A stretch of DNA of 59,596 bases, the filler included, from Sphacelaria rigidula (taxonomy: Eukaryota), in the NCBI GenBank assembly GCA_964200075.2. It is 8 parts of 8 records of this genome, joined end to end, with 100 filler letters (N's around TTAATTAATTAA, not from the genome) between each part and the next. Parts side by side here need not be neighbours in the genome. Positions count along the whole stretch, not along the records: positions 7,464 to 14,826 come from CAXNAA020015248.1; 7 more parts are not named here. One strand, given 5' to 3'. The position numbers and the translations under genes were made by a program. Positions 2,292 through 53,903 of this stretch are shown in pieces. Every line of letters begins with the position of its first letter. The stretch's first letter is position 1. Under the pieces are notes generated by a model. That model ran no database searches. It was not told where the DNA came from and saw nothing but the letters and a program-made list of their open reading frames with translations.

Positions 2292-4464
2292 TCAGGCTTG
2301 GAAATCTACTTCAACTGCGTGCATGTCCCATTCATGAAGTACGAACGCCTCCGGTCCTCGTTGATGGTCGGTACGAAAGAACTGCCTATTCTCCCCTTTT
2401 CTAAATACAAGCTTGGTACGTACGGCTGCTTCTGTGAGCATAGGGTACCACGACGCCGGTCTCGCTGGAACCACTATCACCGCACGGGCGTGGCAATCTG
2501 CGATGTGCTGAAGCACTACTCCGATCATCACCGGGAGGGGGGGAAACAAAACCCGAAGCATTGCTGCGTCCGACATGATGAGCGGCTAACGTCACAGCTA
2601 AAAACGTCTACCCCGTGTGATCCTGCTGTATGATATCTCGAGTAAAAGGGCAGAGCTGTTCCTCCACCCGGTGCATTCATTAGTCTTCTGGGCTGATGCT
2701 GTCGATGCCATGAGGTCCATGTCGAACCCGCCCCACTCGAACCATAACTGGTCAAAATATTCTGCCCTCAGTCGCACGTGCTCGTCGGCCCCTGATCTTG
2801 AGCGGCTGTCTGCCTCTGAGTTCGTCTTTGAGTCTACCCATCGTAACGTGAGTGTGAAGTCTGGTCTGACTTTGCATCCAGAAGAGCTGTTGGATGAGTG
2901 TGTGCATGCGTTCATCCGTGGCTTTACTTTTCTTGAAGGCGTGGTACATGGTTTCGTTGTCGACATCTATTGACGGACTAGTCCCCGCCACTTCATCAGC
3001 TTGCTCTATGCAGAACAGTCCAAGGACCTCGTGCAGTGCGAACGTTTCCTCGAGATTGATGTGTGCTGTCACCCATTCGGCGGGAAAATCGGCGGCCGCT
3101 GTAAAGGCGACGCCAGAGGGGCCTCGAACAAGGCCCCCCCATGCAAGTGATGAGGCATCTGTGGCGCCGTTTATGGCGATGATGTGGTGACTAGGGCTGT
3201 ACCAGGCCGCCCCATTCATGTTGTCTCGGAGTTTCCGCCATGTAGCTATCTCGTTTCGAAGACCACCTTTGACAGAGAGCGCTACCGTTGCTGTGACATG
3301 TTTTCCTTCCGTCTTTCTGTATATCGCGATCTGTTCGTACATGTGAAGCGTGTACAAGCTGGCTGCTGGCACTGCAACCGACATGCTTGTGCACTTTCCC
3401 GCCAGCTTCTCAAGCATATTGAACGTGATGTTTCCGGTAGCAAGGGCGTCGTCTAAGATATGCTCTAACTTGACGAGCTTATCTTCGGGGACTTCGAACC
3501 GGCAGTTGTCTGTGTCGTACAAAATTCCCAAGAACACAATTTTCGTAGTGGGTTCTAGCTGGCATTTCGAGATGGGCATGAAGTATGCACAGTGATAGAA
3601 GACTGACAGCGCCAGGAGGGCTGCTGAGCTTGCTGCCTGTTTGTGCGTATTAGGTGGATCATGTTTTGTCGAGCGGGCTCCCGTCAGCCGGGAATCGTCG
3701 ATCCACGCCAGTACTGGTACATGTCGGGATCGCAGGTATTGTGCCACCGCCTCGCTCAGGGTGTGGTGGATGTAGGGGAAACTGCACCAACCAAAACAGA
3801 GGACAGTCCAGACGTAATATTCGCCCTTCCACTGAAAACCGAAGTATTCCCATGATGTGGGGTCGAGGGGCACATGGTGAAAACCTGATTTGTGGTCCAT
3901 CGTACCCTGGTGAGCACCTTGCCACGAGCATTGGGCCATTTTTCTTACTCCTTTCATCTTGAACGGCATATCCTTGCAAACGAGGTTCAGCCAACGGCCG
4001 TCCCAGATCAATCATGGTTTCGACGGTTCTACTCCGAGCGGGAGAGACATGCGTGGCTTGGGTTGTGCGTGAACGTCTGCTATCTCCGCCCATCGCACCA
4101 CGCAGCCTTTATCGACACGTTTTCTGATCTCGCAGTCGATAAACAGTTCGTGTTCTGGATTCACGTGGTTGGGTAACTCCACACCCATGAGGTCGGCGCC
4201 GTGAAAGGGGCTTCCTTGGAAACTTCCTGTCGTTCATTTGTCGACGAATGTGTGTATCTCTACACCGTAAATCCACGACAATGACAAGTCGGGTTGCATG
4301 TGGTCCTTCAGAATGACATATTTCCAGAACGGGACTGCCGTGCTCAGGTGTCCTGGAACAAAGTCTTTCTCGTTGTATACGGGGGTTGTCGTGGGGCTTG
4401 GGGCGGTTCTCCTGATTCCCAGCCTTCCTGGATCTGGTTCGCAGAGGGATCCTGGATCATACAC
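2292..4464 (-). pseudogene. DIRS-type pol: reverse transcriptase + RNase H + Dam-like methyltransferase domain, disrupted
   Basis: RT: KP*LIWDGRWLN, DHKSGFHHV, LCFGWCSFP, AWIDD, FLGI. RH: ATDASSLAWGG, HINLEE, DVDN, WVDSKTNSEADSRSR. MT: DMDLMAS, FYSRY..GVDVFS, FPP..MIGVVLQH..VIVVP..WYPML. In-frame TGA at 4234-4236 and 4012-4014, plus frameshifts near 2880, 2680 and 2545. Confidence 0.9.
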
Positions 4465-7363: not shown

Positions 7364-7463
7364 NNNNNNNNNNNNNNNNNNNNNNNNNNNNNNNNNNNNN
7401 NNNNNNNTTAATTAATTAANNNNNNNNNNNNNNNNNNNNNNNNNNNNNNNNNNNNNNNNNNNN
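7364..7463. other. Artificial contig-joining spacer (N44-TTAATTAATTAA-N44); identical spacers at 14827-14926, 22289-22388, 29751-29850, 37213-37312, 44675-44774, 52136-52235
   Basis: Seven identical 100-bp spacers carrying a six-frame-stop 12-mer. The intervening segments are 7363, 7363, 7362, 7362, 7362, 7362, 7361 and 7361 bp, i.e. length-sorted contigs. Confidence 0.98.
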
Positions 7464-7557
7464 CCGGGTTCTCATCCTCAATGAAAAGCATCATCCTCAA
7501 TATAGATGATCGGCTGTTTGGTGAGCTTTGCGGGGTGTGTGTCTGCTTCTGCTCCTT

Positions 7558-7558
<1 letters not shown>

Positions 7559-7595
<37 letters not shown>
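7559..7595. repeat. (AT)n microsatellite
   Basis: Perfect ATAT run. Confidence 0.95.
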
Positions 7596-7596
<1 letters not shown>

Positions 7597-7769
7597 TTAC
7601 ATAAACTATATCATATGATGATCATATATTATACAGCATATATATCAATATATAATTATACAAAATAGTATATACTGCTGCATAATAATAAATAAATAAT
7701 ATGAATATAATTATATTAGACTATATGGATATATTGTGTATTATATTATATTAAATGTAGTACATTTTT

Positions 7770-8064
7770 AGGAGAAGGAGCATATGTATAATATAGTCTA
7801 TACATGGACCTATATTATGTGATGGATGATACATGAAATATAGTACATTGGATATGATATATGAAACACATTATAAGATATATACTTCATGATGTATAAT
7901 ATACAAGAATCTCTACTGTCCATGGCAGCTGACTGCATCCGCCACAGCTTCGGTGAAAAACCAGGGGACACACGGCTAGGTGTTCCCCCCCGCCCCCCCC
8001 TCGAAAACTCGAATTTTCGATCTTGGGGCCTGCGTGTCCGGCATCTCATTTTCGCTGCTCCCTG
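7770..8064 (-). mobile_element. End of a non-autonomous DNA transposon (CAGGG terminus, hAT-like); second copy at 40329-40686
   Basis: About 300 bp shared with 40329-40686 (ggagaag.agcata...ctactgtc..ggcagctgac...tcgaaaactcgaatttt..atcttgggg...ttttcgctgc.ccctg). Homology stops at CCCTG in both copies. Confidence 0.65.
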
Positions 8065-8246
8065 TCGAACACGCAAACGGAAGCCAAACGTCTCATTTTC
8101 CTCAAAGGCGTATGTAGGGTACCGTACACTGTCCACGCCTCTCCTTCTCGTCGAACCCGCGTGTGCTCGCGTACCCTATACCACCCCCTGATAACCCGGC
8201 CATCCCTCCTACTCTTGTGTACAACGTGCGTGTCTGCATTATACAG

Positions 8247-11200
8247 AGTTTGGCCCTGCCGACGGAGGCCCTCACTATTGGGACGAAGCCTGGGCATTCT
8301 ACTCCGGCTCTCTCGAGGGAGAGGAGGGCAACGCCGACGGTGATGTGAGTCTAGTCTATACGGGCGGTCTCCTGCACTCTCTTTGTTTCGTTTCACACCA
8401 GCTGTTGTCAATCGTCGTCAATCGCATCTGGCACGGATGGACTCCCACTACGTCACCCATGATTTTTTGTGGACAGGGAGCTCCCACTGATTGGCTGACC
8501 GTCTACTCGACCCGATCGACCCACATGTATGTCCTGATTGCGGACGGATTCACCCCGTTCGAATGGGTGCATCGACATACTGCTGTCTCTCAGCTTGTTT
8601 CAAGACTGAACAGGGTATCGCAACACCTCTTCGCTGCTCAAGCTCAAAACCAGGCTGCACTGTGTGGTTGATGAAGCAAAGGAGTGAGTCAGAGTTCACC
8701 AGATTGGTACAATAGTTGCACACGGGACGATTCAGAGACTATGCCCCGCGTGTGTTCTTCGTGCAGGGTAGAATGCTGTACGCCGTAGCGCAGAAGCGTT
8801 GCGGAAACTTCGGGACGTGCGGCGGCGCGGACGGCATCACCGGGACGGCCGCCGTCAACGACGCCGTTCTGGATCTGATTATGGCTGGCTCGGACCATCT
8901 CCTGAGCGGCAAGTGCACCGAAGCGGAGGACGCGAAGGAGAGGATCGTAGACCTGATGACGGTCCCGCTGCTCCAGGCCGTCCTCAGGTGTGCGTGCCGA
9001 ATAGACTGAGTTCAATCGGCTACGGCGAAGACTTTCTATCCAGAGCGCGAGGCTGTAGTACCATTTCTGTAGTGTACAAGAAGTCATGTACATGTACATG
9101 TACCAGTACTATGTTCTCCACCAGAGTTGGTATCACATTTCCGTCTCACGAGGTTGCCACCGAGTGTTGGATGGTCACGGCCTGCGGGAGGCGTCGTTGG
9201 AAGTACGAAGGAACCCCTGAGCACGACGAGCACTCACCGAGTTTGTACCACCAGCAGGCGTGTTTTCTTGAATGTGGTGTTGATCCAGAAGTTTACTGCT
9301 TTGTTTGTACGGTGGTGCCGGTCAACGCCTTATCACCACCCATTCTGTTCTCTCCCACCGACGTCGCCAACCACATGCATCACCGCCGCCGCAGGTACCT
9401 CTACCGGGCCGATCCAGCCAGCGACTACGACGGCGACGCCAAGCATGCCGCCGAGCTCTGGGCTTTCGCCGCGGCCATCCTGCCACGCGTCAATGAGTGC
9501 TCGGCGGACGTGGCTGAAACCCTCAGGGCCAACTCGGACATTGACAGCGAGTTCGCCCCGGTGTCGGCGGGCTTTGTCGCCGTGAAAGAAGAGCTTGAGC
9601 GCATCTACGCCTGCTTGGGCATGACGTGTGACCAGGTTAGGCTACAAACAACAACGATCTTGGGTGGCTATTCTCGCAGTCGTAACTGGTCGTGGCATGT
9701 ACGACGAGGTATTCTCTGCGTGCTCGAATTGTTGCATCGAGCAAGGTCATTCATGCTTTGAGGATGATCCCGACAAAGTACAGTCGTTACGAACTGCCGT
9801 GCAGGTCGGTGGTCTCTTGGCCGACGACAGTGCGACGGACTATGTTCCAGGTCTCGAGCCGTGCGGCATCGAGGAAGCTGTGGACTTGGGGTGCTTCCGG
9901 GATTCCAGGAGAGACCGCCTTTTAGCGCGGGGGCTGCTGAACAACCGCCACATGACACCAGACGTGAGTCGCAGTTTCCCCGTTCGATTTTTTCGGCAAC
10001 AACCAACACCCTTCAACATGAGAGTCCAAATTCTGGACACCCCTTCTCAACAAGCAGGATGGACGATATTCGCAATGTGCACCCCAGGGGTGGATGACTT
10101 TTATGCCCGTGGATAAGGTCCCTGAAGGCTGACGTTTACGGTTTTGCACCACCATCCCCCGGGGGGTGTCATGACCAGCGTTATCAGGAAGAATACGAAG
10201 TATGCCGCTATAGATTTCATGCTGTCAAGATCTAAGCGTAATAATGCCGTTGTAGGATCGGTGCCTTTCATTCGCGTCGCGACGTGCCCGCCGTCCTTGC
10301 CACTCACTCTGGACGGTAACGGCACCCCCTGTTTACTATTTTCTTCACAGCTATGCAAGGAGCACTGCGTCGGCAAATACGCGTCGTTCTACGCCGTCCA
10401 GTTCGGCGAAGAGTGAGTTTGCTTCCGTTATTGGCGTGTAGGGTATTGTCTAGTAAATGTGTGCACCCATTGGAGACGTGTGGGAATAACGAAGGATAGG
10501 CTGATTGAAAATGGTTGGTGAATGGTTGAAAACCTTGTTGGCGGCGGTGGCCTTTGAACCCAATGTAGCTACGAAGATGTTCGTCTTGCCCGTCTTGATG
10601 GCGTCCGTGTTCACCATCATGACGAAATATCTAGTATAAGTTCATTCATTCGTTTGTCCACGAAGTTCACGTTTCCCGTGGCAGTTTTTAGCCGTTTCAC
10701 AGCACGCGTGTAAGAAACAAAGTTGCTTGCGACTTTTGCTTCTTGCCTCTCACCTGCGTGCCCGCCGGCCTTATTCTCGTTCCCCAAAATGTGTCCACAG
10801 GTGTTGGTGTGGAGATGAATCCGCCGACTACGCCAAGCTTGGTGCGTTGAACATGACGGAATGCGCATCGCCCTGCACGGGAGACTCTGATTTGTTCTGC
10901 GGTGGCGTCGATGCCTTCCAGATATTCTCAGTGCCGGCAGACACATCTCTAGGGCACCTCGGTTGCTACGCCGACATGACAGGCGATCGCCTGTTCAAGG
11001 CCGGCAAAATCGACCTTGAGCATAACAGCGTGGAGGTAGGTCCGATGGTATCTGGACAGACTTCACGATGGACATCGTATTGCTTTCTTGACTCGGTCTA
11101 TTGCTTGTCGCATGTCAAAAAGATGACCGCTGCATTTTTTCGTCAAGACAACACTCTATCGTCACAACCAACTTGATGATTTGCAAGGCTTTGTTATGAA

Positions 11201-11506
11201 CAAGGTTTTAATGATGGCACCTGCTGCATCTGGTGTACAATTATTTTCGCTATTAGCATATCTGGCGTGTTGCAACTCTTCTATTTTCCTATCGTCATGA
11301 TATCTTTTTTTGGTATCGCGCCGGGCAGGCCTGCCGGACCACCTGCAGCGGCTTTCCGCGCTTCGGCCTGCAGTGGGGGAGCGAGTGCTGGTGCGGCGCA
11401 GAAGACGAGGACTACACGAAGCATGGCGCTTCCACCGACTGCGATTCCCCCTGCAACGGCAACACTCTCTACACGTGCGGCGGATACAAGGCCATGAACA
11501 TTTTCG
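8247..11506 (+). CDS. Partial multi-exon gene: FEA1/ISIP2a (phytotransferrin-like, low-iron-inducible) domain followed by two WSC domains
   Basis: GT-AG exons 8247-8344, 8767-8987, 9395-9635, 9805-9963, 10351-10412, 10801-11035 and 11329-11506 splice in frame. Product: HYWDEAWAFYSGSLEG..GRMLYAVAQKRCGNFGTC..LMTVPLLQAVLRYLY..AELWAFAAAILPRVNECS..VKEELERIYACLGMTCDQVGG..YVPGLEPC, then LGCFRD..MTPDLCKEHC..AVQFGEECWCG..CASPCTGD..FCGG and LGCYAD..NSVEACRTTC..GLQWGSECWCG..CDSPCNGN..TCGG. Start and stop codons were not located. Confidence 0.88.
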
Positions 11507-14500
11507 GTGAGCACAGCTACATATTTCATTTCCCTTCAACTAGGTCGAGTCTTCATTGGCCCTCATGAACAGGGCAGTGAGTAGGTCAATTTTACAAGTC
11601 GCACACCCTCTATTTATTCGGATTGGAGGCATCGGAACTACAGAATCATACTTCGGATTATTATCATACCAGGTATTTACTCTACGCTTCGACGCGCGCT
11701 CTCACGCCACCGAGCTACCCAGTATACTGCATATATATTGAGTATCGTTTTGGTGTGAGTTGGTAAAATTCATTTGGCGAATCTTGATTGCAACGCGATA
11801 TATCCTTTCTCTGGTTTTCGCTAGCTTTTTCCCGTGAACGGCAACCGTGACCTTGGTGCTTGTTTCATCGTTTCGGCAGTCGACGCCCGCCTGATGCCCA
11901 CTCCGGCCCACCGCAAACGCCCCCCCTCAACCCACGGGAAACTTCCGCTACATGCGTGTACTTACGGTTTCCTTGTCTCTATCAGAAACCTGAACGGGTG
12001 TCCGAGATGTTGACGCTGGCAATAAGCAGCTTTCGCCATCGGAGCCTAGAAGGGCGGACACACAGCTTGTTCATGTAGGCAAGCCTACTACCTGTTGAGA
12101 CTTTTTGAAGGTGGCACTTATGTTGCCAAGGGACAGTGGAAGGAAGCGGAGGAGGGTTGGGGCGCGCACCATGCTTTGCTTACCTTCTGGCAGTGTGTCG
12201 ATAAACCTGCTTGCTCCGGCGTACGGGGCGTAGGGTATCTATCATCTATCGATTCTCTATTCGTTTATTGTATCGCTTCTTTTCTTTAATAGTATGTCAA
12301 AGTACCAATTCAACTTCTTTGTTGGTTTTGTTCATTTTTCCCTGCTGGCACAGCGTTTTTGCTCGTTATCTTGTCTGGGGCATCTCAAGAGGAGTCGGCG
12401 GTACATTTTCAGCCGTGTAGGGGGTTCATCTGACAACCGTGGTGGGAGTTGTGGCCACCGAAAGCCGCCGAAACTGGCTCTATTTTGCGGGGTACAGATT
12501 CCAGGAAAACTGGAACAGGCGAGACCATTTGGTTTTTTCTATGGGTTTTTCTTATAGTGTTTTCCCATTCTTCTAATTTTTCCCCAGTAACGAACAGCGG
12601 CAATAATGTCTGATGTGAACACATGTGCTACAAAGTTTGTTATTAGTGTTCGGCCTTCACAAGTGTCTATCCCATTCGGCTTGCGTCGCCCCCGGGAGGC
12701 ATGTGCATACCTCGCGTAGGGAAGCCTTGTATACTATATTTCCTTCCTCCTGGGGCGTGAGGAACACTGGAAACATTGGGTCCGTCTCGCTGATTATATT
12801 GTTTGGCACTCACGAGGCATCCTACAATAAGGGGGGGGGGGTATTTTTGGGCCATTTCTTGCACGAAATTCCGAGTCAACTCGTGGTTGAAAGCAGGAAC
12901 GGTTGCTCGAACGAGCTTCTTATGGATAAATAACGCTCATTCATACCGATAGACGCAGTTGTGAACCAAATGCAAGCGCACGGCGAGTGCGGCAGGTCGT
13001 CTGACACATTAATGGGGCTCTTTTTTCATGCAACCAAATACCCCTATCGTAGGATGACTCTCACTACGGCTGTGTCCAACACAGGGCTGAGGCACACATC
13101 ATAGCAGCACCACATCCTTGGTTCTGCTTGTTGCGGGATGCTGTAGTCGATGTGACATCGTCGGGGTGTGGTTCGATAAGACTCCTGGAGTTTTATCAGG
13201 TATTGAAACTGGTTTGGGTTTAATGAGAAATGTATGAACGATGTTGTTTTGTTATGTTTGTAGCATTTTTTTACTAGCTCTCTACCCTGAAACATCCATG
13301 CGGACCCGTGGTCTCAAAACCAGGGCACATTCGACGCCGTATGATGGTTTGACTGGAGTTCAGTTGGTCTTCTTGAGAACAGCGGTTAGCTTAATTAGTT
13401 GAGGCTACCTGAGTCTGTCGCCGAGCTAAATAGCGGTTGAGACATACTTCGAAGTACGTATGACACTGAATATACCAGTAGGTATGTAGGAGATAATGGT
13501 TATAAGTTCAGAGAAGAGTTTTTCATTTGACAGGGTTGCGTGGTGGTAACATCCACTCCTTCGTTCCCGTGTGAGTATCCCTGCTGGCCTGGCTCGCCGC
13601 TTGGACGGCCGAATACACACATTTGCTTCGGCTCGAGAATTCTCGTATTATGTGTCGTTCCGTTTTTACGTGCGGCAGTGTTCTACTAGTGTCACCACAA
13701 AATGAAATGCCCGCAACCAAAACAAATCGAACTCAATGCGGTATGCACTCGGTGCATTTTTGTCCCCATCAACTCATCAACCACTATATACTATGATCAG
13801 GCTAACCCACAAATCGACGCTGACGATCATGTTATTGCTATCCCCTGCGGAGCTATCCACCTCTCCCCCTCCTGTTACGGTATTACCACTTGGCACGGTC
13901 ACCTATCCACATTTTGCAGCTTGGTTCCACCCTTTCTTGAGCGACGGGGCGGCGGGTGGGAAAGCCCATCGATCCTCTGCGAAGCGTGCTAGTTCTTGCC
14001 TACTTGTTACCTACTCGCGCTGCTTAGACCAGTAGGTCGCTGCAAAATGAAGGCCACTCGTTGCTGGTGACAGTATCACTCGTGCGTGCGGCAACCTAGG
14101 TACGATGGCCAACTTTTCTACTGGCAGCGGCACTGCAGATGATGAACAAGGACAGACGACGTACAGCATATATAAGCACACATATTGTTTCCGTACATAC
14201 GTCCCACATCGTCAGAACTCGTACACACCTCCGCAAACACCGCTGTCATAATGAACGCTACATCTTCGATCGCGGACGTTATTGACTGTTGAGACTCAAA
14301 CCATCGGGCACTGAACGACATTCTACGATGTTGGTACCGAGGGAAAACATCAAGGAAACATCTTTTGTGTCTCTCTGAACCAATCATGGTTGTACAGACG
14401 TATGTCTGTAGGGTCACGTGCGGGTACCCCATCTAGGAGCATCTCGATGTTATATTGTGTGATTTGTAACCGCAGGTGAAACCCAGTTCGTGTGGAATAC

Positions 14501-16459
14501 AGTATAACGACAGAGGGACACGTTCGCTCAAAAAAACGGACAGGCCCGACGAGAACGAGCTAGGTTCCCCAGTTGCGTACGCAAGCTCCCCTGATCTGGG
14601 CAGTATTCTGTACCAACCCTCGTGCACTATCGCATAGTGGTTACCCAGCCGGCAACGTACTCGTATCGTTGTTATTATTATCGTTATTGTTACAAGCTGG
14701 GCAAGCAGTAAGCAACAGTGCATCCTAGAAAATGAGGGTGATGAAAAATATGGGGTTGAAGTAGCATTTAACAGCCGATTTTATATTTTGGGGTTCATAC
14801 AAAATATGGGGCTGAAGTGGCATATCNNNNNNNNNNNNNNNNNNNNNNNNNNNNNNNNNNNNNNNNNNNNTTAATTAATTAANNNNNNNNNNNNNNNNNN
14901 NNNNNNNNNNNNNNNNNNNNNNNNNNGGGGGGGGGGGGGGGGGGGGAGGGGGGGGCGGGGGGGGGCGGGGGGGCGGGTGGGGGGGGGGGGGCGGGGGCAA
15001 ACATCAACTCACGGTAGGTGCAGCACACGTGCCTTGAACCCCGTTCATAAGTAAATCTAGGGCACACAGCGAACTCTTTTACCACGGATCCCGACGAATG
15101 CCCACACAGACAACCACCAACCTTCCAAAATGATAAATGACGTGTTGATGACGGTACCCAGAAGCTACGCTAACTCCCAATGCTGCTGCACACGTTTCAG
15201 ACATTCGATGAACTCCTTCGTGTGGAGTGTTTTGTAATACAATATATAAATATAAAACACACACCCTTTGCTGCCGGGAAGAACCCACCCTATTACTTTT
15301 GTTCTAATATTATGATGATTATTATAAATCTGATGATCATAATTATGATCATCATCCTTACTTCCGCACATTTGCCCAATCGTGAACGGATTTAAAAAAA
15401 TCCAAAAACGTAAGTACATGCCCAATACTGTAGGATGATGACTCGGACAGGTTAACTTGCATTGCATACCGTACCCGAAGAAAGCATTGTTTCCGACTTG
15501 ACTTGCTTGTTGTATGCACTATCCCTGTGGTTCGTGTAAAATTCCTATATCATACTTCTTATGTTCCATAAGTAAAGGTCCTTATGATTACACAGATCCT
15601 TAACGGTGTCTGACGCCATAGTCGGTAATTTTTTTATAATCTCTGGCGTTTTTTTAGTTGGAATCCATATATATATATATATATATAGATGTACATGTAT
15701 CATTTCGCATTCCCCACCACTTTTGCATAGTTTTCTCTGGCGGCAAGGCATTCTTTCCCGAGCTTTCTTTTGGGATTCATCTGATACCTGTGGCGCGTGT
15801 TCTGGCCACCTAAAGTCGCTCATACTGGCTTTTTTCGCGGGGTGTCGATCCCGGACCACAAAAGCCTCTTCAAGAGCATGGAAAACTTGAAACAGGAACA
15901 CCGGACCACAAAAGCCTGTTGATGATCATGGAAATATTCGAACAGGACTACTTTTGGCGGGGTGCTTTCCACCCGCATTTCACTTTGTCGCGTTCTCGTT
16001 CATTTGGGAGCACGAACACACCGGTTGTGCCGCCAATGTCACCAAAACGTGAGAGCAAAGCAGTTGAAAACCATTAAACATCGCCTTGACCTTAGTCAGG
16101 AGCAAACACAAGACCGTGCAATGGGCCGTTGGCGAGATCAACAAGGCACGCCAGCACGGCAGAAAAGGAATGCTTTGCTGCAAAAAACAATCACTCTGTT
16201 GAAAAAAAAGCCCCCGTGATGTGGAAGCCACAGTAATCGCATTCCAGTTTTTCGGGAAGTGCCTCCGGCTGTCATTTCTTTGTGCCACGAGAGCTACTTC
16301 GCACTCTGGCACCTCGGGTATAACACACATGTCCTACGCCGGCGGTTCCGCCGTCGGCCTCCGTCCGAATCCTCATATTTCCGGACGACATCCGATCTTT
16401 TGTACAGCCACGATCACTACTGTACACTGAGATATAACAGCCTCTCTTAACCATATATT

Positions 16460-22288: not shown

Positions 22289-22388
22289 NNNNNNNNNNNN
22301 NNNNNNNNNNNNNNNNNNNNNNNNNNNNNNNNTTAATTAATTAANNNNNNNNNNNNNNNNNNNNNNNNNNNNNNNNNNNNNNNNNNNN

Positions 22389-29728: not shown

Positions 29729-29917
29729 TCACGACGTAGTCGCTCTCCACNNNNNNNNNNNNNNNNNNNNNNNNNNNNNNNNNNNNNNNNNNNNTTAATT
29801 AATTAANNNNNNNNNNNNNNNNNNNNNNNNNNNNNNNNNNNNNNNNNNNNTGCGATAAGGAGACCAAAACCCCCGGGATGCACAGGCAAACCCAGGAAAA
29901 CCCCCCCCCGCCCCCCC

Positions 29918-37212: not shown

Positions 37213-37312
37213 NNNNNNNNNNNNNNNNNNNNNNNNNNNNNNNNNNNNNNNNNNNNTTAATTAATTAANNNNNNNNNNNNNNNNNNNNNNNNNNNNNNNN
37301 NNNNNNNNNNNN

Positions 37313-40176: not shown

Positions 40177-40328
40177 GAAGGTACACATTCTCCCACACAA
40201 TTGCCTCCATAATATAAAAAAGGAATAACACCGCTTTATTTTCTACTTGCGTCACCCCCGGAAGGCCAGTACCAACCTCCCGAAGGGGAACCTTGTATTT
40301 CATTAATATATAGTACAGTATATGTTAA

Positions 40329-40686
40329 GGAGAAGAAGCATAGATATTATATGGATCTATAATGTAGACCTCTATTATGTGATATATAGTATATGAAATA
40401 CACTACATGAAATAAAATATACTTCGAAGTATGAAAAATAATATATGGAATATAATGTATGATATATCATATATCATATATCATATATCGTATATCATAA
40501 ATAATACCATGTATAATATATATAAGGATTTCTACTGTCTACGGCAGCTGACCACATCCACCAACGCTTCGGCAAAAAAACAGGGGATACACGGCTGGGT
40601 GCCCCCCCCCCCCCTCCCCGTCGAAAACTCGAATTTTTTAATCTTGGGGCTTACGCGTCCTGAATTTCTATTTTCGCTGCCCCCTG
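40329..40686 (-). mobile_element. End of non-autonomous DNA transposon, same family as 7770-8064
   Basis: Shared sequence ending ttttcgctgccccctg. Confidence 0.65.
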
Positions 40687-41753: not shown

Positions 41754-44700
41754 AAGAAAAATCTCTGTCTGATTGCTTGCATTCATACATACCATTTCCC
41801 TGACATATCTCTCACCCCAGCTAAACGATCTGGTGTGCGTCTTTGCAGGTACATGACAAAGCAAACGCTCGTGGACCTGTTCAAGCACCGTGTGATCCAC
41901 GGCGACCTCCCTTGTGTTCCTTGTGCAGGCCAAGGCGGACTTCATCGCTCAGGAGCTAGGAAGCGCCGATGAACGCATGAAGGCCAAAGCAGGTGTGGAC
42001 ATAGCAGAGAGAGGTCTTCTCCTTCTAGTCCATTCAATGTACCGGGAAACGAGCACAGTCGCCCCCGTTTTCCCGCCCCGAGTGTCGTACTGCCGTGTAA
42101 AAAACATGTGCTCCCTCTTTCCCGTTTTGCCTTCATTATCTGGCGTTTTTTTAGTTGAAAACTATCCATTTACTTTAACACTGTCCATTTCTCCCATGCA
42201 GTCGACCGGTCAACATATATTGCTGGCCCCCAAAATGGCCGTATTTCGTCCCTATTCCGGGGGCATAAGATAGAGGAAAGCCCAGTGATGAAACATACAA
42301 AAGGTGGTCGAAGTTGATTGCTTTCACGTAACATTATGCGCAGAGGGTAGCTGCATCTGCTCCTGGGCCAAAAACCACTTCGTGTAGTTGTGACTCGTTC
42401 AGTTGTGACTTCTGTTCGACACCAAAATGGCACAAGGCGACCGGCTATGGCAAAAATGGGTTCCAACTGGCCAAATTTGTCCACAATTCGGTCGATTTCA
42501 ATCCGAATATTTGTGCGGTATACGTTGAGTGCTTTTTTATTCTTTTATCCGAGAATGATATATATTTTCATCCCTCGGATGATGCTAACTATACTGTCAG
42601 AATATCCTCCGTTCGGGAGATGCCATATGCGCCCATGTTGGTTTTAACTTGAGGGACACACGAATTATATGAGGTACTATCCGGGTACGTAAAAGCGCCC
42701 GCTCCGTTCTATCACCATACAAATATTTTCTACCGCTGAGTTTGCTGTATGCTTTCATCATACCATTTGCGCAGTGCAGATTCTATGTGGTGGGGCGGGA
42801 TCTGGGATCCCGATCCATGCTGTGAACTGTTTGCAGCTCGCTCTATCCGGCTGCAATCCTGTAGGAAGCGCCTGTGAGGAGGGACTGGTTCAAGGCTACA
42901 GTCTTCCGTTCAATATCAAGCCGCCTGCAGACACCCGCGTTCGCAAACCTCATCCGCTTCTCGGAAAGGTGGCCAGAATGCACCTATCCATGATGGATCG
43001 CACGAAACGAACCACGTTCCGCAGTGTCAAGCTTCGTTTAGTGGGCTCGAGACATGTGACGAGTCAGCCGGCGTCAATCTGAACCCATACGACCAGAATC
43101 ACGCGAAGAAACAAAACTTTGCGTCCTCTGAACGTCTTAGGTTGTAATTCCTTTGCTCTTATGGCGACTGTCGTCAATGAGCTCGAGAACTAGACCATCA
43201 ACCGCAGACCGGTGGATCGCCTCGTAGGCACCCCAAACAGCATCAAATGAGGTGAAAAATAAAAACGCGGAGTTGCCGGCGGTACATCTGCTCGAAGCCC
43301 ATGCAATCTTTCAACCGGCTCGGGAGAATTGCCGTGACTTTTCGAAGTGGAGACTTGGTGTTGTGCGGCTTACAAGCGATGGTTCTGCTCATGGCTTAAG
43401 ACTATGATCGGCGGTTCAGGAAAAACCCTGCTCGGCGCTTACGACTGGGAAGTTCGGTGGTACCGTACTAGTACTGGTACATCATAACAGTGTGGCGTCC
43501 GGGCATTTATGTTGGATTATCGTATTTTATGTGGTCAGGTGCGCACGTGCGCGACGTGGGAGTAGCAGTCCGTTCATTGCTCGTACGCAAAGCTTGATTT
43601 TAGTGGTTAGGAGCTGATGTTTTACGGGATGAAACCATCGATGAAGGAAAATGAGGTACGGAATCCTGGAGCAATTTCTGAAACCTGAGAAGAAGAAAAG
43701 TATCATTTTATGAAATTTCGCGTAAAAAAATCGAAATGTTCGTGACCGCGGGGGACATCCTCTTCTCGCCATTGATTGAAAAGAACCTTCTGCACGGCAT
43801 CTTTCTGTCTGTAACATCCTCGTCGCTATTTTGAGATTACTTCCTTGAAGTGAGCCGTCCATTTCATTCCTGTCTTCAAGTCGGTCATTCATCGCTGCTA
43901 CGACTGACTCGCGTAGGTCAACGGGATTCACAGCTACATCAGCCAAACGCCATTTCTTTGCTTCACAACCTGTGCACAGCTGAATCTGAGAGATGGCTAC
44001 CTGGAAGTTTCACAGAAGGTATATCGTCAATCTGCGGAAGGTGGCTGAAGATTCGCAGAAGAAAGCCGTATCCAGCAAGTTGGATCGAACGACAAGCTTG
44101 AAACGTTGGAGCGAATCGAAAAGGCGACAACATTGGAGACTAATCGCAAATCCTGAACAACTTGAAATATATGATCACGCAATCCACACAAGGGTCCGTG
44201 TATCGAGTCCAAAAATGTGGGAACGCGACGTGATGGTGATGGTGATTGCGGCGGTTGGGAATTCTTTTTTCACAATTCCGATTGGTTGTGATTCGATGCC
44301 ACATTCTGACCTCTCCCAAAATCACTTCCACGAAAATCAATCTTCTGGGAATGAATTTTTGTGAGAGCGGATGAACATTTGCGTGACAATGCGAAGAGCA
44401 ACGTCACATCAAAGCCGAATCCAAATTCCGGGGTTGAACACTGTAATAGTGTGGCGGTGTTGCAGTATGATAGCAAGCCGAACCCCAGAGGAAGGGATGA
44501 TAGCAAGCTTGTTCTGAAGCCAGATCGTAAAACACGCTGAAGGCTCCTTGCTCAAGCATACAGTAGCAACAGCTGTTCGGAGATCACGAACCACGCCTCA
44601 TATAATTACGACCCAAAAGGGAAGACAGGTACGAAGGGTTATGATACACACAGCTTCCACAACTCACGTTGGTCNNNNNNNNNNNNNNNNNNNNNNNNNN

Positions 44701-44774
44701 NNNNNNNNNNNNNNNNNNTTAATTAATTAANNNNNNNNNNNNNNNNNNNNNNNNNNNNNNNNNNNNNNNNNNNN

Positions 44775-52072: not shown

Positions 52073-53903
52073 CAATTTTTTGTTCATTGTGTTTGCCTCT
52101 TGAGCGCCGAGCGCAACTCTTTTGTGTCGGCAGACNNNNNNNNNNNNNNNNNNNNNNNNNNNNNNNNNNNNNNNNNNNNTTAATTAATTAANNNNNNNNN
52201 NNNNNNNNNNNNNNNNNNNNNNNNNNNNNNNNNNNCCCCCCCCCGCCCCGTCCCCGCCCATGACCCTCGTTTAAACTCCCGCCGCCGCCCCCCCCCGTTC
52301 TGCCCCCCCCCCCCCACCCCCCATAACCCCACGGTCATGCCCTTCTTCGGGTACTCTGGGGCAGTTGCACACAAGACGCTTCGTGGGATGGAGTGATGCC
52401 TGGTCCAGCACCGTGCTCCTTGCACATAGCCATGACTGTACGCCACCGCCTCCCCTTTCGCCGCCGCTCCTATCGCGACCGCCTCTGCCACCTCCGCCGA
52501 TAAACCGTCTGATCGGCCGCACTCCCTCCATGCCTACCCCCTCCTCCTCCCCGATGTAAGAAGCTGCATGTCTGGTTCGATGTCTTGCCCTAACTCCGAT
52601 GCAGTAGTGTCGCGTGGAATGCCCCTAACGTCCAGTGCCGGTTCAGAACAACCAAATCCAATTGCGACCAATATGGTAGCCTGGCAGAAGACACGGGGTC
52701 GTATTGTACATTGTACAGAGCGTACTGCCGGACGATGAGTGCTATAGCCCGCGTGTTGAGCGTCGACCGGAAAAAACAGGTCGAAGGCATCCCGTCCACT
52801 TCCTCGGCAATAAGCCCGCCTCCTCCTTGGAGAACGGAGTTTCCGTTTTCGCCGTAGTTCAGGCCGGTATGATTTCCCGCCAGTACATGTGGTACTCGGA
52901 AGCGTGCGCATGTAGCCAGACTACTGTATGCATCAAGTGAGGTCTTCTTCTCCAAGCTGGTACACTGCAGCGACTTGGCACGTCGAGGCGCAGCACGAAT
53001 GCTGCACAATAACCTTGTATGTATGTGTTTGTGTTCGAGGGTACGTGCGTGTCATTGACTGGGCGTGTGTGCGTCGGGTGTGTGTGCTATGTGCTCGCTC
53101 TTGCTGAGAACGGCGCAATTAGTTCGGGACTGTCACGAACGAGGTGACAGTAGTTGGTGACGAAGAACAACAGATGTCGCGAGAGGTATTGTTCCAAACA
53201 TGAGGCTCATGTGCGAAAAGAACAATGACGATGATCAGCACCCGCACAACCCATAATTTTCTTCAGAACTTTCTTCAACCGCCAAAGTGGTAAAATAACC
53301 TCGCTCGACGTCATCTTTTTCGCGGATGATCTTTGAGTTTTTCCATTTCAATCATTTACTTGATGAAAGTGACCAGTGGGCACCCTCCCCAACCAAGTAG
53401 GGCATGTTCTGTGGACGCATAATACGTCGATCAACCGGGGGTCACAATCGATATGACACTCGACAACTTTGTTCGGGGATGATGGTGATGTCATGAAGAT
53501 AATTGCCGCGGTACGACGTAGCGAGTTCATGTTATTTATCAAAACTTTCTGGCCTACTTGCTTGCTTGCTGAGCAGTTAGCTCCTTGACTCATGGCATGA
53601 AGCCAACCAGTGCCCATGTGCGAAGCACACACTAAGGACCGTATTGTCTGAAGTAGGATCATTGACAAGATTCGGCAGGCGCTTTGTATACTTATTACCT
53701 GATGATAGATAGTTTGGGTTGTTAGTCTCATGTGTTGTTGGGGCCTACTCCTCTCAAGGTACACCGGAAATAATGTATCTGTAATTAATTGGCGACTGCG
53801 AGATTAGTCTTTCTGGATCATGCATAATTTTTTTTCACTTGAAATTGATGCCGATTCAACAGAAGACTAACCTCGCGATCCAAGGGTCAAATTCCCGTTT
53901 CTA

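What the first reader, a model, noticed from the sequence alone, without database searches (positions are those of the whole stretch)
8247..11506. Phytotransferrin-like (FEA1/ISIP2a) domain fused to tandem WSC domains: candidate cell-wall-tethered iron-capture protein
Seen: seven GT-AG exons, largely invisible in the ORF track, splice into one open frame. The N-terminal part carries WDEAWAFYSGSLEG, LYAVAQKRC..F.TC, LMTVPLLQAVLRY, AFAAAILPRVNEC and YACLGMTCDQVGG, directly followed by two complete Cys-rich WSC domains. Established: this motif series is what I recall for algal low-iron-induced FEA1/ISIP2a ferric-binding proteins. WSC domains are carbohydrate-binding modules expanded in brown algae, and the characterised FEA1/ISIP2a proteins are soluble or membrane-anchored. 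Inference: the fusion could anchor an Fe(III)-binding domain in the polysaccharide wall, giving a wall-based iron scavenging or hand-off system. I do not know of a description of this architecture but cannot confirm novelty.
Basis: partly seen in the sequence, partly recalled or inferred. Interest (0 to 1): 0.78.

Follow-up and report, generated by a model that had tools for sequence, protein, structure and literature searches.

The report
Wall-anchored iron-binding protein gene fragment
A brown-alga gene, cut short by the end of its contig, joins an iron-capture domain known from microalgae to two sugar-binding WSC modules in place of the usual membrane anchor; the combination sits unnamed in databases and suggests, but does not prove, iron capture in the cell wall.

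Summary
Seven GT-AG exons (8247-11506, + strand) splice into a 397-codon open frame. It contains, letter for letter, an NCBI protein called 'unnamed protein product, partial [Sphacelaria rigidula]'.

Pfam finds Fea1 (PF07692, 35 bits) followed by two WSC domains (112.8 bits). Only the C-terminal half of the Fea1 domain is present (profile 153-345 of 359). The window is eight separate contigs glued together, and the gene's contig starts 783 bp upstream of exon 1.

Ectocarpus orthologues (78% identical) show the whole protein: leader, two Fea1 units, two WSC domains, and an end two residues later. Exon 4 alone encodes the Fea1-to-WSC junction. Two probable RNA runs carry the 9635/9805 splice.

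All other brown-algal Fea1 proteins I examined end in a transmembrane helix and tail; the WSC forms have none. The fusion appeared only in Ectocarpus species and Sphacelaria. The papers I could search hold no description of it, although the Ectocarpus siliculosus orthologue is on record in NCBI and UniProt.

The predicted Fea1 fold is all-helical with no clear solved relative, so a transferrin-like fold got no support.

Iron binding and wall tethering remain inference. WSC is a very promiscuous module in brown algae (444 proteins in one Ectocarpus genome). Verdict: a real gene and a new variant of a known kind, of moderate interest.

The parts
8247..8344 (+). Exon 1 of the fragment (an internal exon of the gene). 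It starts with 2 bases of a split codon and encodes the WDEAWAFY..GS helix of the Fea1 domain.
   Evidence: CAG acceptor at 8244-8246 and GTGAGT donor at 8345. Alone it hits Pfam Fea1 at 25.4 bits, profile 153-179.
8767..8987 (+). Exon 2: Fea1 domain (the LYAVAQKRC..TC stretch through LMTVPLLQAVL).
   Evidence: Splice sites. 76% identical to Ectocarpus P0003 by tblastn.
9395..9635 (+). Exon 3: Fea1 domain (AELWAFAAAILP..NEC, a KEELE motif, CLGMTCDQ).
   Evidence: 84% identical to P0003. RNA?-contigs of X1 and X6 cover 9431-9632.
9805..9963 (+). Exon 4: end of the Fea1 domain, a short linker and the start of WSC1. This is the fusion point, inside one exon.
   Evidence: P0001 residues 186-238; Pfam Fea1 runs to 195 and WSC starts at 213. 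A spliced join 9632->9802 (GT..AG, cut +3) is seen in X1 and X6, and the X6 contig runs on to 9909.
10351..10412 (+). Exon 5: middle of WSC1.
10801..11035 (+). Exon 6: end of WSC1, inter-domain stretch and start of WSC2.
   Evidence: Pfam WSC 26.1 bits for the exon alone. 71% identical to P0003.
11329..11506 (+). Exon 7: rest of WSC2. It ends in phase 1 at G|GTGAGC.
   Evidence: Pfam WSC 41.5 bits for the exon alone.
11986..11993 (+). Candidate start of a last exon: two bases completing a Glu codon, a Thr codon and TGA. Inferred only.
   Evidence: Of 18 pyrimidine-rich [CT]AG acceptors in 11521-13200, this one shares the best pyrimidine tract (0.87, tied with 12588) and alone gives a tail of two residues beginning with Glu, like the two-residue tail (E-A-stop) of the E. 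siliculosus orthologue. No RNA contig covers it.
7364..7463 (.). Artificial spacer between contigs: the real 5' limit of the sequence available for this gene.
   Evidence: 44 N + TTAATTAATTAA + 44 N, repeated seven times at a period of about 7462. P0001's contig is 7363 bp long.
7561..8064 (.). Repeats in the 783 bp upstream of exon 1: an (AT)n array at 7561-7654 and a dispersed repeat at 7741-8064.
   Evidence: TRF. 77-82% match to window 40293-40686. DNA depth 33747 against a 67.5 baseline at 7956-8201.

Best explanation
This is the 3' two-thirds of a real, spliced brown-algal gene.

Shown. It encodes the C-terminal half of a Fea1 (FEA1/ISIP2a, 'phytotransferrin') domain joined by a short linker to two WSC domains, and it ends almost at once after the second WSC. 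It is the orthologue of Ectocarpus proteins built as leader, Fea1, Fea1, WSC, WSC. It belongs to a distinct paralogue lineage in which the WSC pair replaces the C-terminal transmembrane helix and cytosolic tail of the other brown-algal family members.

Inferred. The protein is secreted. Its Fea1 unit(s) bind Fe(III) outside the cell, as shown experimentally for diatom ISIP2a and Ostreococcus Ot-Fea1. The WSC pair keeps it at the surface by binding a wall polysaccharide rather than a membrane. It would then act as an immobilised extracellular iron binder, the brown-algal counterpart of periplasmic Chlamydomonas FEA1. It would raise local iron concentration for membrane transporters or for the membrane-anchored paralogues. 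Lacking a tail, it cannot itself be endocytosed the way ISIP2a is.
For: Gene and splicing. Six GT-AG introns, a 397-codon open frame, and identity to an independent NCBI model. The 9635/9805 splice is in two probable RNA runs and absent from the DNA run.

Domains. Pfam Fea1 35 bits, WSC 112.8 bits in two stretches. NCBIfam 'FEA1-related lipoprotein' gives 83.8 bits, E 1e-23, below its 250-bit cut-off. Of 91 family columns that are at least 80% conserved, 47 lie in the part present here and 43 of those 47 match the consensus, including all 7 conserved Cys.

Orthology and constraint. P0001 is 78% identical (313 of 400) to Ectocarpus sp. 8 P0085 over Fea1 and both WSC domains. By region this is 84.9% in Fea1, 72.0% in WSC1 and 75.3% in WSC2. 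Against the membrane-anchored paralogue P0011 it is 52%, and that alignment loses conserved residues just after the EPCG motif, where P0011's membrane helix lies. In the tree, the WSC forms are one clade (100/99) with Sphacelaria sister to the Ectocarpus forms (92/84), inside a brown-algal clade (81/84).

Anchor swap. Of 10 complete or C-terminally complete Fea1 proteins without WSC that I checked, 9 have a C-terminal hydrophobic helix (P0011, P0005, P0009, P0013, P0015, P0017, P0021, P0008 reach the threshold; P0010 ends in a hydrophobic stretch below it). Of the 4 WSC forms, 0 have one.

Iron role of the family.
- The B. natans protein P0017 in my set, 42% identical to P0085, is the Fea1b shown to fall 8.7- to 10.8-fold after iron resupply (PMC7883536, passages).
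- Ot-Fea1 is loaded with iron in cells (PMC4855317, passages).
- ISIP2a coordinates ferric iron (PMC7966952 and PMC7972479, passages).
- Three Aureococcus hits fuse Fea1 to the FTR1 iron permease family PF03239.
- In 38 of 64 prokaryotic Fea1 loci, a gene matching both the Transferrin and Phosphonate-bd families lies within 4 kb; an ABC ATPase does so in 35 of 64.

Wall context. Ectocarpus binds Fe(III) at its surface with an effective constant comparable to EDTA (PMC3904714, Discussion read).
Against: - No test of iron binding, sugar binding, secretion, location or iron regulation was possible for this protein or its orthologue.
- The metal ligands of Fea1 domains are not defined in any paper I could read, and no relative is in the PDB (0 hits at E<=10). 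'Ligands kept' therefore rests on general conservation only.
- Half of the domain, the leader and the 5' end are missing from the window, so intactness in Sphacelaria is unproven.
- RNA support is thin: one contig per run at depth 2 and 3.3, and the runs' RNA nature is the tool's guess.
- The WSC ligand is unknown in brown algae. The solved WSC relatives found by sequence are Kremen-1 and entry 7pz2, whose molecule name in the table is only a code. From memory, Kremen's WSC also makes protein contacts.
- WSC is attached to very many unrelated domains: 444 WSC proteins in Ectocarpus sp. (preprint 10.1101/307165, passages), and GSDH, Agd3 deacetylase, LRR and VWD partners. The fusion may therefore be one of many shuffling products.
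- Miller et al. attribute the surface iron to hydroxo-carboxylato ligation by polysaccharides and favour uptake from solution, not directly from the surface.
- No WSC form appeared among the named proteins of Undaria, Scytosiphon, Hapterophycus, Ascophyllum or Nemacystus in my searches; only membrane-type or partial forms did. Given fragmented annotations, this is weak evidence.
Confidence: 0.6

Rival explanations
1. The protein is an extracellular iron binder, but the WSC pair is not a wall tether. It docks the protein onto another protein (a permease, a reductase or the membrane-anchored Fea1 paralogue), or it is a generic brown-algal extracellular module without specific retention. The protein would then work as a soluble apoplastic carrier like Chlamydomonas FEA1.
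For: The closest solved WSC sequences are Kremen-1 (E 5e-07) and entry 7pz2 (E 1.4e-07). From memory, Kremen's WSC takes part in protein contacts. The closest WSC relatives carry very different partner domains: GSDH, Agd3_CE, LRR, LVIVD/beta-propeller. FEA1 is described as a secreted periplasmic protein without an anchor (PMC8098128, first part of the text).
Against: WSC is annotated as a putative carbohydrate-binding domain in the brown-algal literature I read (PMC12879055, passages). Some of the closest WSC pairs sit on a polysaccharide deacetylase domain, which fits a glycan target. Both WSC domains are kept at 72-75% identity between two orders, with all 16 Cys.
Confidence: 0.2
2. The Fea1 part does not serve iron here. 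It binds another metal or anion, or it is part of a CO2/carbonate response. The family's first members were found as high-CO2-induced proteins, and the Ectocarpus paralogue is named accordingly.
For: P0011 is named 'probable high CO2 inducible periplasmic protein'. FEA1/HCR1 are induced by high CO2 as well as by iron deficiency, and FEA1's mechanism is called unknown (PMC8098128). Ot-Fea1 levels also respond to zinc (PMC4855317).
Against: Every functional result I could read for family members concerns iron. Genomic partners of prokaryotic and Aureococcus relatives are iron-uptake genes. 43 of the 47 conserved columns are kept.
Confidence: 0.1
3. In Sphacelaria this copy is a dead or truncated remnant. 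Its 5' half was lost next to repeats, even though the Ectocarpus orthologue is functional.
For: No upstream Fea1 exon anywhere in the window. An (AT)n array and a dispersed high-copy repeat fill the 783 bp upstream. The NCBI model is 'partial' at both ends.
Against: The contig simply ends there, and exon 1 has a good acceptor and starts in mid-codon. There is no stop or frameshift in 397 codons, and identity to Ectocarpus is 78% with conserved residues kept. A spliced transcript piece exists.
Confidence: 0.07

Closest known systems
Ectocarpus siliculosus CBN74008.1 / UniProt D8LDE3 ('conserved unknown protein', 'WSC domain-containing protein', 934 aa), with cluster members from Ectocarpus sp. 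6, 8, 12, 13 and E. fasciculatus
   Same: Orthologue. It has the same Fea1-linker-WSC-WSC order. Ectocarpus sp. 8 P0085 is 78% identical over 400 residues. The E. siliculosus protein ends two residues after WSC2.
   Different: The Ectocarpus proteins are complete at the 5' end, with a hydrophobic leader and two nearly identical Fea1 units. The window holds only half of one unit. None of them is characterised, and neither accession occurs in the searched papers.
Brown-algal membrane-anchored Fea1 proteins (E. siliculosus 'probable high CO2 inducible periplasmic protein' P0011, Undaria P0013, Scytosiphon P0015, Nemacystus P0150)
   Same: Same Fea1 domain, 52% identity, and the sister clade in the tree.
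   Different: They end in a transmembrane helix plus a short tail. The window's protein has two WSC domains at that place and no hydrophobic segment.
Diatom ISIP2a / phytotransferrin (Phaeodactylum tricornutum)
   Same: It carries the PF07692 domain and is a cell-surface Fe(III) binder (PMC7966952 and PMC7972479, passages).
   Different: ISIP2a is membrane-bound, carries a C-terminal endocytosis motif and is internalised; this protein has neither anchor nor tail. I did not align ISIP2a itself, because it was not among my hits.
Chlamydomonas reinhardtii FEA1/FEA2
   Same: Secreted, anchorless Fea1-domain proteins proposed to concentrate iron outside the plasma membrane (PMC8098128).
   Different: No WSC or other retention module. 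Their mechanism is unknown, and only an apo crystal is reported; my PDB copy holds no sequence relative of the Fea1 profile.
Ostreococcus tauri Ot-Fea1 and Bigelowiella natans Fea1b (P0017)
   Same: Fea1-domain proteins with experimental links to iron. Ot-Fea1 has duplicated Fea1 domains, as the Ectocarpus orthologue has.
   Different: Both have a C-terminal transmembrane helix and no WSC.
Other brown-algal WSC fusions (PR-1/CAP-WSC, Agd3-type deacetylase-WSC, GSDH-WSC, LRR-WSC)
   Same: Same module, used as an appendage on extracellular domains. The closest WSC pairs are 47-53% identical.
   Different: The partner domain is different. No iron-related partner is described in the papers searched.
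Prokaryotic 'FEA1-related lipoprotein' (NCBIfam NF038033), mostly in marine group II archaeal MAGs
   Same: Homologous domain: P0092 scores 276.8 bits, above the 250-bit cut-off, and P0001 scores 83.8 bits.
   Different: These proteins start with a leader ending in AGC, which I read as a lipobox, so they are tethered by a lipid. They are encoded beside transferrin/PhnD-like and ABC transporter genes.

Membership tests
Fea1 / ISIP2a family (Pfam PF07692) | Match to the family profile above Pfam's gathering score | tested here: met
   P0001 scores 35.0 bits against a cut-off of 25, E 1.1e-08. Exon 1 alone scores 25.4 bits. 55 of the 57 aligned relatives match the same family.
Fea1 / ISIP2a family (Pfam PF07692) | Whole domain present (profile about 1-359, including the N-terminal half with the conserved W-M-Y-V-x-H-E-x-E helix) | tested here: inconclusive
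   Only profile 153-345 is encoded. 44 of the 91 conserved columns fall in the missing part. The contig ends 783 bp upstream and no other piece of the window holds the missing part. Orthologues have it.
Fea1 / ISIP2a family (Pfam PF07692) | Conserved family residues, including the cysteines of an extracellular disulfide-bonded domain | tested here: met
   43 of the 47 conserved columns that are covered match the consensus. All 7 conserved Cys are present (positions 43, 49, 81, 140, 178, 183, 205 of P0001).
Fea1 / ISIP2a family (Pfam PF07692) | Secretory leader peptide | tested here: inconclusive
   The 5' exons are absent from the window. The orthologues P0092 and P0089 start with a short hydrophobic leader followed by the conserved mature N-terminus. 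No signal-peptide predictor was run.
Fea1 / ISIP2a family (Pfam PF07692) | Binds Fe(III) and is induced by iron limitation | not testable with these tools
   This needs recombinant protein and iron-limited cultures. No brown-algal iron-limitation expression study was found.
Phytotransferrin sensu ISIP2a (membrane-bound, endocytosed) | C-terminal transmembrane helix and cytosolic tail with an endocytosis motif | tested here: not met
   No hydrophobic 19-residue window of 1.6 or more in P0001, P0085, P0089 or P0092, whereas the paralogues have one. The alignment to P0011 loses conserved residues just after EPCG, where P0011's membrane helix lies. The feature is as described in PMC7972479.
Transferrin / periplasmic-binding-protein superfamily | Sequence match to Pfam Transferrin (PF00405) or Phosphonate-bd (PF12974) | tested here: not met
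   Neither family is among the 25 families listed (of 43 matched) when the 57 aligned Fea1 proteins are scanned at E<=10; P0085 itself matches only WSC, Fea1 and Toxin_35. P0001 and P0092 show no such hit at E<=0.01.
Transferrin / periplasmic-binding-protein superfamily | Alpha/beta two-lobed fold | tested here: inconclusive
   The AlphaFold2 model of orthologue P0085 has an all-helical Fea1 domain (residues 1-345, pLDDT mostly above 90) with only isolated bridge residues. Foldseek gives no PDB match at E<=0.001. VIA-align's best Z is 6.7, to generic four-helix bundles. A family that is not listed is not thereby excluded.
WSC domain (Pfam PF01822) | Match to the family profile above the gathering score, twice | tested here: met
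   112.8 bits against a cut-off of 27.8, in two stretches. PDB sequence matches are to the WSC of Kremen-1 and to entry 7pz2.
WSC domain (Pfam PF01822) | Eight conserved cysteines per domain | tested here: met
   Cys at 215, 240, 244, 260, 262, 280, 284, 292 in WSC1 and at 314, 339, 343, 357, 359, 375, 379, 387 in WSC2. [quoted passage not shown]
WSC domain (Pfam PF01822) | Binds a carbohydrate (here, a wall polysaccharide) | not testable with these tools
   No ligand is known for any brown-algal WSC in the papers read.
Imelysin / peptidase M75 (EfeO/EfeM-like) iron-binding proteins | Shared two-bundle helical fold with an HxxE metal site | tested here: inconclusive
   This was my own lead, from the H-E-x-E motif in the family's N-terminal half. 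The top Foldseek row is an imelysin (3n8u_A), but at E 0.25, probability 0.10 and TM 0.11-0.13. It is not in the VIA list, and there is no Pfam M75 hit.

The most novel reading that the evidence does not exclude
Brown algae run a two-tier phytotransferrin relay. A wall-immobilised Fea1-WSC protein captures Fe(III), or strips it from the alginate/fucan-bound pool, inside the apoplast and passes it to the membrane-anchored Fea1 paralogues, which are internalised. This protein would then account for part of the unusually strong, EDTA-competitive surface iron binding measured in Ectocarpus. It would be a third way, besides a membrane helix and a lipid, of keeping this iron-binding family at the cell surface.
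Probability: 0.2. Interest if true: 0.7.

Novelty: new variant of a known kind. Interest (0 to 1): 0.45.

Why it matters
How large brown seaweeds obtain iron is poorly known. The one detailed study I could read shows very strong iron binding at the Ectocarpus surface. It leaves open whether that pool is biologically used, and by what (PMC3904714).

This gene is a concrete candidate. It is a member of the only algal protein family shown to bind Fe(III) at the cell surface, rebuilt so that a carbohydrate-type module replaces the membrane anchor. It has been kept under constraint between two brown-algal orders.

It can be tested directly in Ectocarpus by iron-limitation expression, tagging, knock-out and recombinant binding assays. 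If the WSC pair binds a defined wall polymer, that would also give the first ligand for a domain present in hundreds of brown-algal proteins.

If it does not hold up, the finding is simply one more product of the heavy domain shuffling known in this lineage.

Tried and rejected
- Whole genome: none is held for this window.
- Earlier scan notes: none by place, sequence or words.
- Upstream exons: tblastn of the Ectocarpus protein against the whole window found nothing for residues 1-131.
- RNA runs: no listed holder is on record as RNA. X5, whose word share of 0.38 equals the exon share, turned out to be low-coverage DNA that crosses intron borders. Five of the six junctions, the 3' end and the 5' end have no RNA contig.
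- PDB by sequence: nothing for the Fea1 part, with single proteins or with a 57-sequence profile at E<=10.
- Internal repeat: hhalign of the N-half against the C-half of the Fea1 alignment gave probability 0.14%, so no detectable internal duplication.
- Weak Pfam links of Fea1 to the M75, transferrin or PBP families: none.
- Fold search: Foldseek gave 0 matches at E<=0.001, and the top row (an imelysin) is not significant. VIA-align gave no Z of 8 or more, only generic helix bundles over model residues about 100-240. The WSC part of the model is unreliable (pLDDT below 50) because only 3 of the 57 aligned rows carry it.
- ESM Atlas: no usable hit.
- Metagenome scan with P0001: one weak locus at 31% identity over residues 2-48.
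- Rest of the contig: no further Pfam domain in ORFs of 110 aa or more, no tRNA, no Rfam family.
- Papers not held: Bottger 2012, McQuaid 2018, Allen 2007. What I say of them is recalled, or taken from papers that cite them.
- REXXE-type motifs, proposed for Ot-Fea1 in PMC4855317: one (KEELE) in the spliced protein. This is too weak to use.


Full report
WHAT THE WINDOW IS. The 59,596-base window is not one stretch of genome. Seven spacers of 44 N, TTAATTAATTAA and 44 N recur at a period of about 7462 bases. They cut the window into eight pieces of 7361-7363 bases. The finding lies on the second piece, window 7464-14826. The protein database lists a 7363-bp contig for the identical protein. 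Nothing to the left of 7464 is therefore known to be linked to the gene.

THE OBSERVATION. I re-derived the exons from the sequence and checked them by script. They are 8247-8344, 8767-8987, 9395-9635, 9805-9963, 10351-10412, 10801-11035 and 11329-11506. All six introns start with GT and end with CAG. The 1194 spliced bases read as 397 codons without a stop, which has a chance of about 7e-7 at the window's stop-codon frequency of 0.035. The translation contains, letter for letter, a 396-residue NCBI protein named 'unnamed protein product, partial [Sphacelaria rigidula]' (P0001, CAM9814742.1).

DOMAINS. Pfam gives Fea1 (PF07692) at 35.0 bits (cut-off 25) and WSC (PF01822) at 112.8 bits in two stretches. 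NCBIfam's 'FEA1-related lipoprotein' model gives 83.8 bits (E 1e-23), below its equivalog cut-off of 250. Each WSC domain has its eight cysteines.

WHAT IS MISSING. The Fea1 match covers only profile positions 153-345 of 359, and exon 1 begins in the middle of a codon. tblastn with the Ectocarpus orthologue finds no trace of its first 131 residues anywhere in the window. The 783 bases between the contig start and exon 1 hold an (AT)n array and a dispersed repeat. That repeat matches window 40293-40686 at 77-82% and is very deep in the DNA run (33,747 against a 67.5 baseline). The simplest reading is that the assembly broke in a repeat-filled intron.

At the other end, exon 7 stops in phase 1 at a GTGAGC donor. 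I listed 18 pyrimidine-rich acceptors in the next 1.7 kb. The one at 11983-11985 shares the best tract (0.87, tied with the site at 12588) and alone adds a two-residue tail beginning with Glu, then TGA. The Ectocarpus siliculosus orthologue likewise ends two residues (E-A) after the same WSC domain. This is inference. Read-through of the donor would instead add 20 residues up to a stop at 11566-11568.

TRANSCRIPT EVIDENCE. No run is on record as RNA. Two runs that the tool guesses to be RNA (X1, X6) each have one contig that joins 9632 to 9802 with GT..AG ends (cut +3). The X6 contig continues to 9909, past the first WSC cysteine. DNA run X2 has an unbroken contig over 8010-12874 and no such join. 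Depths are low (2 and 3.3), and the other junctions are not covered.

THE FUSION IS NOT A GENE-MODEL ARTEFACT. Exon 4 (P0001 residues 186-238) encodes three things in one open stretch of DNA: the last conserved Fea1 features (G187, and C205 in the EPCG motif), a linker of about seven residues, and the start of WSC1 (Pfam from 213, first Cys at 215).

THE WHOLE PROTEIN, FROM ORTHOLOGUES. The 90%-identity cluster of the best hit holds 13 sequences from Ectocarpus siliculosus, E. fasciculatus and Ectocarpus sp. 6, 8, 12 and 13. The E. siliculosus member (CBN74008.1, UniProt D8LDE3, 934 aa, 'conserved unknown protein' / 'WSC domain-containing protein') and the sp. 6 member (932 aa) share one plan. 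It is a short hydrophobic leader, two almost identical Fea1 units, two WSC domains, and the end.

P0001 is 78% identical (313 of 400) to the sp. 8 protein across all three domains, with one four-residue gap in the linker. By region the identity is 84.9% in Fea1, 72.0% in WSC1 and 75.3% in WSC2. In a 57-sequence family alignment, 91 columns are at least 80% conserved. Of these, 47 fall in the part present here and 43 of the 47 match the consensus, including all seven cysteines. The other 44 fall in the missing half.

WHAT DISTINGUISHES THIS LINEAGE. The other brown-algal Fea1 proteins end in a hydrophobic helix and a short charged tail. These are E. siliculosus 'probable high CO2 inducible periplasmic protein', Undaria, Scytosiphon, an unnamed Logan protein and a two-unit Ectocarpus form; more distant relatives such as Bigelowiella and Amorphochlora do the same. 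The four WSC forms have no such segment. The pairwise alignment with the membrane-anchored paralogue is 52% identical. It loses conserved residues just after EPCG, where that protein's membrane helix lies and this one enters WSC1.

A maximum-likelihood tree of the region homologous to the window's Fea1 part used 83 domain rows, all from the hits plus three cluster members. Domains covering fewer than 150 query residues were left out. The tree puts the WSC forms in one clade (ultrafast bootstrap 100, SH-aLRT 99) with Sphacelaria sister to the Ectocarpus forms (92/84). This clade sits inside a brown-algal clade (81/84), beside the membrane-anchored forms (86/73). The root is at the midpoint only. 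The anchor swap is thus older than the split of these two orders and has been kept since.

HOW WIDESPREAD. I ran three searches.
- With the 529-aa Ectocarpus protein: 80 hits at E<=0.001, of which 2 clusters (Ectocarpus, Sphacelaria) carry both Pfam families.
- With the C-terminal 375 residues of the 934-aa protein, against proteins of 513-1635 aa: 31 hits at E<=1e-10, of which 1 cluster carries both.
- With P0001 by HMMER against 1.84 billion representatives: 5965 hits at E<=0.001, the top 150 returned.

I then searched all 265 proteins fetched up to that point with the Fea1 part and the WSC part separately. 171 matched Fea1 only, 88 matched WSC only, and 5 matched both. All five are the Ectocarpus and Sphacelaria proteins already known.

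Caveats: representatives hide members at over 50% identity, only 150 were returned, and brown-algal annotations are fragmentary. Named proteins from Undaria, Scytosiphon, Hapterophycus, Ascophyllum and Nemacystus in my hits are membrane-type or partial forms. A few unnamed Logan fragments at 73-95% identity to single exons show that close relatives of the gene exist elsewhere.

WHY IRON. None of this was tested on this protein. For the family, the papers I could read say the following.
- ISIP2a is a cell-surface protein that coordinates ferric iron with carbonate and is endocytosed through a C-terminal motif (PMC7972479 and PMC7966952, passages).
- Ot-Fea1 has duplicated Fea1 domains and a C-terminal helix, and is found loaded with iron (PMC4855317, passages).
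- B. natans Fea1b falls 8.7- to 10.8-fold after iron resupply (PMC7883536, passages). It is protein P0017 of my own hit list and is 42% identical to the Ectocarpus orthologue.
- Chlamydomonas FEA1 is the major protein secreted by iron-deficient cells, of unknown mechanism (PMC8098128, first part of the text).

Two kinds of context point the same way. Three Aureococcus hits fuse Fea1 to the FTR1 iron-permease family. Among 64 prokaryotic loci found with the family alignment, most titled as marine group II archaeal MAGs, a gene matching both Pfam Transferrin and Phosphonate-bd lies within 4 kb in 38 loci. An ABC ATPase does so in 35, a flavodoxin in 10 and a ferritin-like gene in 3.

FOLD. AlphaFold2 on the Ectocarpus sp. 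8 orthologue with the 57-row alignment gives a confident, all-helical Fea1 domain (residues 1-345, pLDDT mostly above 90). The WSC part is unreliable (pLDDT below 50), since only three rows carry it. Foldseek finds no PDB match at E<=0.001; its top row, an imelysin, has E 0.25 and probability 0.10. VIA-align against 48,161 chains finds no Z of 8 or more. The best are Z 6.7, to PsbQ-type four-helix bundles over about 110 residues, which the tool itself rates as a common arrangement. By sequence the PDB holds no relative of the Fea1 profile. So 'phytotransferrin' is a functional name: nothing here supports a transferrin-like fold.

MECHANISM. The family seems to need to be held at the cell surface, and it achieves this in different ways:
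- a membrane helix in diatoms, green picoalgae, chlorarachniophytes and most brown-algal copies;
- a probable lipid anchor in prokaryotes (the NCBIfam name, and leaders ending in AGC);
- fusion to a permease in Aureococcus;
- confinement in the periplasm in Chlamydomonas.

In the lineage found here the anchor position is occupied by two WSC domains. I think the most likely reading (0.6) is retention in the wall or apoplast by binding a polysaccharide. That would make the protein an immobilised extracellular Fe(III) binder that cannot itself be endocytosed. This fits the strong surface iron binding measured in Ectocarpus.

That study, however, assigns the binding to polysaccharide carboxylates and favours uptake from solution (PMC3904714, Discussion). 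WSC ligands in brown algae are also unknown. WSC is attached to hundreds of unrelated proteins: 444 in Ectocarpus sp. and 320 in E. subulatus (preprint 10.1101/307165, passages), with PR-1, deacetylase, dehydrogenase and LRR partners. The rivals are protein docking instead of wall binding (0.2), a role other than iron (0.1), and a dead copy in Sphacelaria (0.07).

NOVELTY. The gene and its orthologues are already in public databases, unnamed, and the protein collection holds precomputed Pfam hits to both families for them. In the searchable library I found:
- no paper holding WSC together with FEA1, apart from an unrelated spider paper;
- none of the 25 papers listed (of 49 holding two terms) combining 'WSC domain' with phytotransferrin or ISIP2a;
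- none holding the two accessions;
- none holding 'WSC domain', Ectocarpus and iron together;
- nothing relevant.

Subscription papers and supplements were not searchable. I rate it a new variant of a known kind. The domain family, the module and the habit of shuffling WSC are all known. The specific replacement of the membrane anchor of a phytotransferrin-type protein by a carbohydrate-type module is undescribed, conserved and testable. Interest: 0.45.

Noticed in passing
window 7364-7463, 14827-14926, 22289-22388, 29751-29850, 37213-37312, 44675-44774, 52136-52235: The window is eight separate contigs of 7361-7363 bp joined by artificial spacers (44 N + TTAATTAATTAA + 44 N). Features on different pieces are not known to be neighbours.
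   Followed up: yes
loci L002-L065 (e.g. L022:3794-8218, L012:1702-5687, L027:3648-8094): Prokaryotic Fea1 relatives, mostly in marine group II (Poseidoniales) archaeal MAGs, sit beside a roughly 700-aa protein that matches both Pfam Transferrin and Phosphonate-bd (38 of 64 loci) and an ABC ATPase (35 of 64). A flavodoxin (10 of 64) or a ferritin-like gene (3 of 64) is sometimes nearby. This looks like a conserved iron-uptake gene cluster. The one paper search I made ('Marine Group II' + transferrin) listed nothing that describes it.
   Followed up: partly
window 12136-12383 (+ strand coordinates): The probable RNA runs X1 and X6 cover this stretch at depth 2.7-3.7. A 255-letter loose end before 12135 matches nothing on the contig, and a CAG acceptor lies at 12134-12136. 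This is another transcript, a repeat or a misjoin. It does not continue exon 7.
   Followed up: partly
window 2755-4011, minus strand: A 419-codon open frame with a sub-threshold reverse-transcriptase match (RVT_1, 27.9 bits against a cut-off of 29.6). It is probably a retroelement remnant, on a different contig from the gene. It was the only Pfam hit among the 94 ORFs of 110 aa or more outside the gene.
   Followed up: no
window 7741-8064 and 40293-40686; also 12630-13121, 13614-14351, 14598-14826: A dispersed repeat is shared by two contigs (77-82% identity). Several stretches of the gene's contig have DNA depth 50 to 10,000 times the baseline. High-copy elements flank the gene and probably caused the contig breaks.
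   Followed up: partly
protein P0003 (Ectocarpus sp. 12), residues about 474-529, compared with window 11327-11494: The C-terminus of this Ectocarpus model matches the window's second WSC exon read in the wrong frame (66% identity to the alternative frame). That model therefore carries a frame error or a frameshift in WSC2. The sp. 6, sp. 8 and E. siliculosus models read it correctly.
   Followed up: partly
proteins P0066, P0077, P0080 (Aureococcus anophagefferens): Fea1 is fused to the FTR1 iron-permease family (PF03239 + PF07692, precomputed Pfam). This is another way of tying the domain to the membrane.
   Followed up: no
protein P0092 (E. siliculosus), residues about 25-385 and 386-745: The two Fea1 units of the Ectocarpus orthologue are almost identical (tree branch lengths 0-0.005), and the same holds in the independently assembled sp. 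6 protein. The unit duplication is recent or homogenised, so Sphacelaria may have one or two units.
   Followed up: partly
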